DNA of 64,000 nt from Octopus vulgaris (lineage: Eukaryota): contig OX597824.1 in the NCBI GenBank assembly GCA_951406725.2, forward strand, positions 80,476,001 through 80,540,000, read 5' to 3'. Below, piece by piece: positions 53,451-54,183 of this stretch. The translations under genes were made by a program, and so were the position numbers. How positions within the stretch are numbered: position 1 is the first letter of the stretch; each line of letters opens with the position of its first letter. The notes under the pieces are model-generated. The model was not told the DNA's origin, ran no database searches, and worked only from the letters and a program-made list of their open reading frames with translations.

Positions 53451-53960
53451 CCAATGCCTTTTATGATCAGAAAATGAAATACAGGATTGTACGATGTGGC
53501 AATCAGGCATAGCATGGGGCGGTTCGATAAAGTGTTTGTATAGTATAACGTGATATAGTGTGATACGAAATGTGGTATTTCTTGTGTGAGTTGACCCTCT
53601 CATATTAGCTCGTGTAATGCGTCGCCGTTTTCATTGCTGCAGTTTCTTGTTTAAGATTAGATGCAGCATGATAGATCAAAAGGGTTTCCAGCTGCGACTC
53701 TCACGCCTTTATGTATATCAGTATCTTTATCATCGATCATTGGTACAGCATGCGATTTGAAGATTTTCAAGGTTATGTATGTATGTATGTATGTATGTAT
53801 GTATGTATGTATGTATGTATGTATGCATCTATTTATCTGTCTATCTATCTATCTATCTATCTATCTATCTATCTATCTATCTATCTATCTATCTATCTAT
53901 CTATCTATCTATCTATCTATCTGTGTGTGTATATATATATATATATATATATATGATTGT

Positions 53961-54005
53961 CACACGCTGACGAGAGGTCAATACCTCGAAACTCGAGTCC
54001 GTGTG
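53961..54005 (+). ncRNA. Canonical type I hammerhead ribozyme
   Basis: CACACG-CTGACGA-GAGG TCAATA CCTC-GAAAC-TCGA-GTC-CGTGTG: intact CUGANGA/GAAA core, all three stems pair, GUC triplet with predicted cleavage after 53999. Confidence 0.9.
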
Positions 54006-54183
54006 TATCATAAGTTGAAGACGGGAAGGATGACTTCCCTTTGCAAATACTGACAGGACACAGAAAGTGTGTCTATGGCCAGCTGGAGGAGTGTGTCCTC
54101 CTGGGGCTAAAAACTACAGTAGCATCCACCCTTACGGGTTAGCCATATTGAAATGGCAAATATACGTCACGATATATATGTAT

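What the first reader, a model, noticed from the sequence alone, without database searches (positions are those of the whole stretch)
53954..54171. Intact hammerhead ribozyme heading a ~220-nt all-hairpin non-coding element (retrozyme-like)
Seen: a complete type I hammerhead (53961-54005) with palindromic stem III (ACTCGAGT) and an extendable stem I (TGAT..ATCA). It is followed by five hairpins: GGGAAG/CTTCCC 54023-39, GACAC/GTGTC 54057-73, GGAGGA/TCCTCC 54085-101, ACCC/GGGT 54128-39 and GCCAT/ATGGC 54142-57. The unit lies between TA tracts and has no credible ORF. Known: type I hammerheads with short palindromic stem III occur in Penelope-like element termini and non-LTR retrozymes, and can work as dimers. 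Inference: this is a self-cleaving, structured, non-autonomous mobile RNA family of this genome, possibly undescribed.
Basis: partly seen in the sequence, partly recalled or inferred. Interest (0 to 1): 0.82.

Follow-up and report, generated by a model that had tools for sequence, protein, structure and literature searches.

The report
Octopus hammerhead retrozyme, truncated copy
A textbook self-cutting "hammerhead" RNA motif sits in a 222-base piece of a 353-base non-coding repeat of what is likely an octopus genome; it is likely a new family of a known kind of small parasitic element (a retrozyme) predicted to make RNA circles, though neither cutting nor circles are shown.

Summary
A canonical type I hammerhead lies at 53961-54005 (Rfam RF00163, 32.2 bits, E 1.8e-6; gathering 34). 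The five hairpins are present and the downstream part folds better than shuffles (z -3.6). In public sequencing data it is a many-copy family, and one 383-nt contig runs 54003-54173, 131 other letters, then 53952-54032 (3 and 0 differences). Its 30-nt end overlap makes it a closed 353-nt cycle: a tandem unit or a circle. The window holds a solo 222/353 fragment that spans the cleavage site and sits in a TA tract. No RT/GIY-YIG frame was found within about 6 kb. The host is likely Octopus. Verdict: a new family of the known animal non-LTR retrozymes, probably mobilised by Penelope-like elements. Cleavage, circular RNA and stem covariation are not shown. A weak A-to-I editing signal is the only unusual lead.

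The parts
53952..54173 (+). Solo, truncated copy (222 of 353 nt) of a hammerhead-bearing repeat unit (non-LTR retrozyme-like)
   Evidence: contig 17 of run X18 matches 53952-54032 with 0 differences and 54003-54173 with 3, joined through 131 further letters; only copy in the window; GC 46.8%
53961..54005 (+). Canonical type I hammerhead (helix I 6 bp, helix II 4 bp, helix III 2 bp with palindromic loop); predicted cleavage after C53999
   Evidence: architecture as defined for canonical metazoan HHRs in PMC4209133
53991..53998 (+). Self-complementary ACUCGAGU: weak 2-bp helix III as a monomer, 8-bp intermolecular helix III in a dimer (predicted)
   Evidence: monomer helix III probability 0.0; self-duplex -10.7 kcal/mol
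53952..54012 (+). Extension of helix I, TATGAT/ATCATA, beyond an internal loop
   Evidence: pair probabilities 0.81-0.95
54014..54045 (+).
   Evidence: loose end before 53952 (3 contigs) pairs here at -25.8 kcal/mol; 6 of 1000 shuffles and 1 of 572 other tiles reach it; this stretch folds alone at -11.1
54057..54157 (+). Hairpins 2-5 (54057-73, 54085-101, 54128-39, 54142-57)
   Evidence: common family variants fall mostly in loops, but not significantly so
53929..53954 (.). (TA)n target tract; its last letters TAT overlap the element's 5' end (microhomology)
54172..54180 (.). ATATATATG, also present at 53947-53955: possible target-site duplication with 2-nt (3') and 4-nt (5') microhomology; cannot be proven inside a microsatellite
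   Evidence: boundaries
54180..54480 (-). Neighbouring abundant SINE-like dispersed repeat, independent of the element (strand and SINE label are recalled, not from a call)
   Evidence: 9 further pieces in the window; its contigs start in varied AT-rich flanks (table 7)

Best explanation
This is a solo, truncated genomic copy of a 353-nt non-coding, hammerhead-bearing repeat unit that closes on itself in public contigs, and it is likely a non-LTR retrozyme of an octopus, predicted to be cut out of tandem transcripts by its ribozyme, likely circularised, and likely copied into TA tracts by a Penelope-like element's enzymes. Steps: (1) shown: complete canonical type I hammerhead, no ORF, many-copy family, closed 353-nt unit in one contig. 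(2) inferred: head-to-tail source copies are transcribed; two neighbouring hammerheads pair through ACUCGAGU to form the active dimer and cut after GUC, giving 353-nt monomers. [quoted passage not shown] (4) inferred: a Penelope-type endonuclease nicks a TA tract and its RT primes inside the unit (at 54173), copies through the cleavage junction and stops at 53952. The copy contains both sides of the cleavage site, so its template cannot have been a cleaved linear monomer; it was a circle, an uncut multimer or DNA. (5) This copy has one hammerhead and lacks 131 nt, so by itself it cannot release a unit-length RNA and is likely a dead-end insertion.
For: Rfam and descriptor match. 20 of 24 listed runs hold 0.55-0.80 of the 20 sampled words, in 12 studies and under 11 coded organism labels. 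Joint 54173->53952 with 131 letters between, shorter side 81 letters, depth 139.2, in a 383-nt contig whose ends overlap by 30 nt (tables 5, 8). Loose ends behind 54173 agree between X13 (30 contigs) and X16 (17 contigs). The loose end before 53952 continues helix I in register. No listed change falls in the catalytic core (0 of 39 rows); one haplotype changes GUC to GUA, which fits the NUH rule (recalled). 5 of 8 listed joints change strand, as in the inverted pieces of Penelope-like insertions. Unit size matches mussel retrozymes of about 350-390 bp. No RT or GIY-YIG hit in 150 of 181 frames nearest the element. Host: the highest-identity hit of the window's Gypsy relic is an Octopus sinensis protein, 90% over 35% of the query; O. 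vulgaris has 31 recently active Penelope-like families.
Against: The closed unit rests on one contig in one run whose RNA status is a guess, and a cycle in an assembly graph does not tell an RNA circle from a tandem DNA array. The 131 letters were not printed, so the two 30-nt loose ends are only inferred to belong to them. No two-sided compensatory change was seen. Stem sparing is not significant (4 of 14 common variant places in stems, 5.7 expected, P 0.27). 12-31% of the depth in three runs carries changes at 53986 or 53987 that break helix II unless compensated. The active monomer fold is 6.8 kcal/mol above the minimum-energy fold. In Xenopus, 8 of 9 predicted retrozyme dimers did not cleave in vitro. 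GC of the fragment is 46.8%, slightly above the '<45%' given for the kind. Each strand-changing joint is a single contig and could be an artefact. No autonomous partner was identified.
Confidence: 0.78

Rival explanations
1. It is the pseudo-LTR of an autonomous Penelope-like element; this locus is a short solo insertion of that terminal repeat, and the 353-nt cycle reflects tandem pLTRs.
For: PLE terminal repeats carry type I hammerheads with palindromic helix III. PLEs form partial tandems and inverted pieces and favour (TA)n. Retrozymes are themselves related to pLTRs. PLE RT initiates internally and uses uncut RNA, which fits a copy that spans the cleavage site.
Against: The cyclic contig holds no room for an ORF. 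No RT/GIY-YIG frame among the 150 nearest frames. The motif has canonical geometry (6/4/2 bp), not the minimal PLE type with helix II of 7-8 bp and helix I of 4-5 bp. Family-wide linkage to an ORF could not be tested (no genome).
Confidence: 0.13
2. It is a satellite or dispersed DNA repeat descended from a retrozyme that now spreads at the DNA level (unequal crossover, microsatellite-mediated conversion); the ribozyme is a passenger and no RNA circle is made.
For: The cycle could be a DNA tandem array. A sizeable share of copies have a broken helix II. No covariation was shown. A rearranged short unit without an intact core is seen in X13 (joint 54164->53977, depth 239). The satellite model is discussed in 10.64898/2026.07.22.740005.
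Against: The core is unchanged in all 39 listed rows. The cyclic contig has a hammerhead identical to the window's and carries nearly all the depth over it in X18 (139 of 142). Sequence-specific long-range pairing is kept.
Confidence: 0.07
3. It is an endogenised copy of a viroid-like RNA that replicates RNA-to-RNA in octopus cells.
For: Small, highly paired, hammerhead-bearing closed unit. Cloned mussel retrozyme circles did not match the genome, and the authors left RNA-RNA replication open.
Against: A hammerhead is found on one polarity only in the window's part of the unit. The sequence is abundant and diverse in DNA-like runs. Two patterns gave 0 matches in viral, genome and metagenome collections.
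Confidence: 0.02

Closest known systems
Metazoan non-LTR retrozymes (Cervera & de la Pena 2020, PMC7229834; passages and sections 14 and 17 read), especially the 350-390-bp units of the mussel Mytilus galloprovincialis
   Same: Canonical type I hammerhead with 2-bp helix III and tetraloop; one ribozyme per non-coding unit of about 350 nt; unit closes head to tail; highly self-paired; mollusc host.
   Different: A different sequence family (that paper says sequences are species-specific; its main text does not contain 'cephalopod', its supplement could not be read). GC 46.8% in the part seen. Cleavage and circles are shown there but not here. This locus is a partial monomer.
Vertebrate/insect/coral non-LTR retrozymes as non-autonomous PLE derivatives (Li, Clavereau & Pollet 2026, 10.64898/2026.07.22.740005; parts 1-3 of 5 read)
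   Same: Tandem source copies plus dispersed solo monomers; proposed mobilisation by Penelope-like elements.
   Different: That study sampled no mollusc (0 occurrences of 'mollus', 'octopus', 'cephalopod' in the main text). Its 'active' class needs two consecutive units with complete hammerheads, which this locus lacks. A parent pLTR was not identified here.
Hammerheads in pseudo-LTRs of Penelope-like elements (Cervera & de la Pena 2014, PMC4209133; Frangieh et al. 2024, PMC11167929; passages read)
   Same: Type I hammerhead, palindromic helix III suited to dimer cleavage, insertion in microsatellite, inverted junctions among relatives.
   Different: No RT/GIY-YIG ORF at the locus or in the closed unit; canonical rather than minimal geometry.
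Rfam Hammerhead_1 (RF00163)
   Same: Full-length match, all core positions, AAUA in loop II. 235 such hits were counted in the giant squid genome without further study (PMC6962438, passage).
   Different: 32.2 bits, 1.8 below the gathering score, so routine Rfam annotation would miss this family.

Membership tests
Non-LTR retrozyme (metazoan) | Canonical type I hammerhead with intact core | tested here: met
   geometry 6/4/2 bp as; 0 of 39 listed changes in the core
Non-LTR retrozyme (metazoan) | Short unit (150-450 nt) arranged head to tail, one hammerhead per unit | tested here: met
   closed 353-nt contig (one contig, run X18); met for the family, not at this locus, which is a solo fragment
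Non-LTR retrozyme (metazoan) | Non-coding, no own RT, no LTR pair | tested here: met
   a 353-nt unit cannot encode an RT; 131 nt of the unit were not seen in full
Non-LTR retrozyme (metazoan) | Low GC (<45%) | tested here: inconclusive
   46.8% over the 222 nt held; the whole unit could not be measured
Non-LTR retrozyme (metazoan) | Genomic tandem arrays of two or more complete units (Li et al. 'active' criterion) | not testable with these tools
   no genome held; the cyclic contig may be DNA tandem or RNA circle
Non-LTR retrozyme (metazoan) | Self-cleavage in vitro | not testable with these tools
   predicted only; monomer fold disfavoured, dimer helix III -10.7 kcal/mol
Non-LTR retrozyme (metazoan) | Accumulation as circular RNA | tested here: inconclusive
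   cyclic contig comes from a run only guessed to be RNA
Non-LTR retrozyme (metazoan) | Co-existence with autonomous PLEs in the host | tested here: inconclusive
   host inferred as Octopus; PLE families reported in Octopus; no PLE seen in the window
Penelope-like element pLTR | Repeat flanks an RT + GIY-YIG ORF | tested here: not met
   no such Pfam hit in 150 of 181 frames nearest the element or in 150 window frames (only a Gypsy relic 30 kb away); family-wide linkage untested
Penelope-like element pLTR | Minimal hammerhead geometry (helix II 7-8 bp, helix I 4-5 bp, little or no helix III) | tested here: not met
   6/4/2 bp against the definition; some PLEs do carry other variants
Penelope-like element pLTR | Microsatellite targets and inverted partial copies | tested here: inconclusive
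   TA target at this one locus; 5 strand-changing joints, one contig each
Plant LTR retrozyme | Type III hammerheads in paired LTRs | tested here: not met
   type I motif, single, no LTR pair

The most novel reading that the evidence does not exclude
Octopuses express an active 353-nt retrozyme circle that is controlled at two levels: a pairing switch (hairpin 54023-39 against the long helix I rod) that decides whether a hammerhead pairs with the upstream unit and cuts, and ADAR A-to-I editing of the element's RNA. This would explain how animal retrozyme circles avoid re-cutting themselves and why cloned circles differ from the genome, both left open in PMC7229834, in the animal group with the heaviest RNA editing.
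Probability: 0.12. Interest if true: 0.7.

Novelty: new member of a known kind. Interest (0 to 1): 0.36.

Why it matters
It extends non-LTR retrozymes to what is likely a cephalopod and fixes the unit (353 nt) and a near-identical, apparently young source sequence that can be tested directly. It also shows that the family falls just under Rfam's cut-off and so escapes routine annotation. The solo copy spans the cleavage site and ends internally in TA microhomology, which fits copying from a circle or uncut multimer by a Penelope-type RT; a genome-wide map of such ends would test that still hypothetical step. If the editing signal holds, octopus would be the place to test whether ADAR regulates ribozyme circles. 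As it stands it is an expected element of a known class.

Tried and rejected
No genome is held, so copy number, arrays and covariation could not be computed. Two DNA patterns gave 0 matches in each of the viral, genome and metagenome collections. No RNA holder listed on record: 7 of the 20 holders are only guessed to be RNA. Summed contig depth was not used as a copy number. Earlier findings: nothing by sequence, place or relatives. The loose end behind 54173 has an 8-bp complement at 54116-54123, but its duplex is not beyond chance (510 of 1000 shuffles): rejected as evidence. The one tile that beat the upstream duplex (about 18205-18290) is a chance match in a LINE-like 3' end. Stem sparing by family variants is not significant (P 0.27 and 0.15). 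Enrichment of the A>G/T>C class among X18-specific changes is not significant (4 of 6 against 13 of 33, P 0.37). No tRNA or convincing Pol III A/B boxes; the bacterial promoter scan is at chance level and irrelevant here. The other Rfam matches (three miRNAs, one lncRNA) are TA-tract noise. Literature searches that found no description of an octopus retrozyme. The O. vulgaris repeat paper has 0 occurrences of 'ribozyme' or 'retrozyme' in its main text. The supplement of PMC7229834 and the bioRxiv supplements could not be read, and Repbase/Dfam were not searchable; the family may be listed there.

Full report
1. Observation. Stem I is CACACG/CGTGTG, the core CTGACGA and GAAA are intact, stem II has 4 bp, and stem III has 2 bp with a UCGA loop inside the palindrome ACTCGAGT; cleavage is predicted after C53999. 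Rfam Hammerhead_1 matches over its full length at 32.2 bits, E 1.8e-6, just under the gathering score of 34, so the standard scan of the window finds nothing. A descriptor finds this one motif in the window and none in 200 shuffled windows. The geometry (6/4/2 bp, palindromic loop III) is what PMC4209133 calls the canonical metazoan type, which cleaves poorly as a monomer and better as a dimer (passages). In agreement, the active monomer fold scores -12.3 against -19.1 kcal/mol for the minimum-energy fold, while two copies of the palindrome form an 8-bp duplex of -10.7. The energy model omits tertiary contacts, so this does not exclude monomer activity.

The five hairpins are present. The downstream 161 nt fold better than shuffles (z -3.6; 1 of 500), two neighbouring controls do not (z -0.7, 0.0), and three perfect 6-bp stems were reached by 0 of 1000 shuffles. 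No ATG frame of 20 aa or more lies wholly inside the element.

2. Surroundings and host. The window is microsatellite-rich animal DNA. The element is its only copy of this sequence. It is flanked on the left by stacked (TATG)n, (TATC)n and (TA)n tracts and on the right by four TA units and an abundant dispersed repeat with 9 more pieces in the window. Pfam found no RT or GIY-YIG domain in 150 of the 181 frames of 30 aa or more between 47 and 61 kb, taken nearest first; three frames had sub-threshold hits to unrelated families. A second scan of 150 frames across the window (149 of 391 that passed a complexity filter, plus one Gypsy frame) found only a Gypsy pol relic at about 22.2-24.2 kb above threshold. 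The highest-identity hit of that relic among 120 listed is an Octopus sinensis protein (90% over 35% of the query). I therefore take the host as Octopus; this is an inference from one transposon protein plus my recall of the neighbouring repeat as an octopus SINE.

3. Related sequences. No genome is held, and microbial and viral collections have no match. Of 24 listed sequencing runs, 20 hold 0.55-0.80 of the 20 sampled words, in 12 studies and under 11 coded organism labels; none is on record as RNA. I laid 4 of the 20 on 53946-54215. Laid contigs were 24,996, 3,399, 16,720 and 127; these counts include the tail of the neighbouring repeat. Summed depth is not a copy number.

The key record is contig 17 of X18 (guessed RNA; 383 nt; depth 139.2). 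It reads 54003-54173 with 3 differences, 131 other letters, then 53952-54032 with 0 differences. Its two ends share 30 letters, as expected when a 31-mer graph closes on itself (my inference), so the unit is 383 - 30 = 353 nt = 222 + 131. This is one contig in one run, and it cannot tell an RNA circle from a head-to-tail DNA array. Support comes from loose ends: behind 54173, 30 contigs of X13 and 17 of X16 continue with nearly the same letters; before 53952, 3 contigs of X6 share one upstream sequence (24 loose-end rows shown, 422 not shown). The window copy is thus 222 of 353 nt.

4. Structure of the full unit. The 30-nt upstream loose end, folded as a separate strand against the whole element, pairs with 54014-54045 directly beyond the TATGAT/ATCATA extension, at -25.8 kcal/mol. 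6 of 1000 shuffles and 1 of 572 other tiles reach that; the segment alone folds at -11.1 through hairpin 1. The downstream loose end gave no significant duplex (510 of 1000).

Family variation neither proves nor refutes the stems. Of 40 rows shown (9 more hidden) I used 39 and dropped the row at 54180, outside the element. None falls in the catalytic core. Of 14 places varying in 10% or more of X13 depth, 4 are in stems (5.7 expected, P 0.27); of 7 at 30% or more, 1 is in a stem and keeps pairing (P 0.15). Changes at 53986 and 53987 that break helix II make up 12-31% of depth in X13, X6 and X16, with no partner change listed. No two-sided compensation was seen; the data are unphased.

5. Mechanism. 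Best reading: tandem source units are transcribed, neighbouring hammerheads cut as dimers, monomers are ligated to circles, and a Penelope-type RT/endonuclease copies them into TA tracts. This is the life cycle proposed in PMC7229834 (sections 14 and 17 read) and 10.64898/2026.07.22.740005 (parts 1-3 of 5 read). Local facts that fit: the copy spans the cleavage site, so the template was not a cleaved linear monomer; both ends are internal to the unit and overlap the TA tract (TAT at 53952-54, AT at 54172-73); ATATATATG at both ends could be a target duplication. 5 of 8 listed joints change strand, one contig each, like the inverted pieces of PLE insertions; PLEs of the Naiad clade favour (TA)n and occur in Octopus (10.1101/2021.04.23.441226, passages). 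A purified PLE protein initiates internally and uses uncut RNA (PMC11167929, passages). O. vulgaris has 31 recently active Penelope-like families (PMC13282606, passages). All steps from transcription onward are inferred. A caution: 8 of 9 predicted Xenopus retrozyme dimers did not cleave.

6. An editing lead. In X18, six changes are at least 10 times commoner than in both DNA-like runs. Four are A>G on one strand or the other (54134 and 54141 at 14% and 17% in 7 and 8 contigs; 54108 and 54120 in 2 contigs each), and all four have a 5' U neighbour (P about 0.003, post hoc). ADAR favours 5' U or A and 3' G across metazoans (PMC9989829, passages). Against: the class enrichment is not significant (P 0.37), X18 bears a different organism label so these may be alleles, its RNA status is a guess, and X6 shows no such pattern. 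It is a lead only. A search for 'retrozyme' with 'A-to-I' listed two papers, neither on this topic by its listing.

7. Comparison and novelty. It works like, and meets the testable sequence criteria of, a metazoan non-LTR retrozyme; cleavage, circles and genomic arrays are untested. It fails the pLTR test at this locus. Searches for an octopus or cephalopod retrozyme found none; the giant squid genome paper counts 235 Hammerhead_1 hits without analysis (PMC6962438, passage). The supplement of PMC7229834, bioRxiv supplements and repeat databases were not seen and may list it. Earlier AI notes report similar 339-341-nt retrozymes in sea squirts; they are unchecked and only show that the kind recurs. 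Verdict: new member of a known kind, interest 0.36.

Noticed in passing
window 22235-24157 (+): Broken Gypsy/Ty3 pol relic (RT, RNase H, integrase pieces in several frames); highest-identity hit is an Octopus sinensis protein at 90% over 35% of the query.
   Followed up: partly
window about 17930-18400 (-): 3' end of what looks by eye like a CR1/L2-type LINE, ending in a short (CTAA)n-type tail (label recalled, no Pfam hit).
   Followed up: no
window 54180-54480: Abundant SINE-like repeat abutting the element, with 9 more pieces in the window at 76-89% identity.
   Followed up: partly
window 52968-53470: A second dispersed repeat with internal direct repeats and many pieces across the window; not identified.
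   Followed up: no
window 6171-6245 (-): ARAGORN calls a tRNA-Ala(cgc)-like gene, single copy in the window; may be a tRNA pseudogene or SINE head.
   Followed up: no
window 54108, 54120, 54134, 54141 (run X18): A>G / T>C changes 50-290 times commoner than in DNA-like runs, all with a 5' U neighbour: possible A-to-I editing on both strands, or alleles of another species.
   Followed up: partly
window 53953-54053 (run X6, contig 24): A haplotype at depth 149.8 with 13 differences; single-contig changes of the same depth include GUC to GUA at the cleavage triplet and changes at 54012-54013. It is over 100 times commoner at 53999 than in DNA-like runs: possibly a second expressed subfamily.
   Followed up: no
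window 54164->53977 (run X13): A joint with 11 letters between, depth 239, implies a shortened unit of about 199 nt without an intact hammerhead core (table 5c).
   Followed up: no
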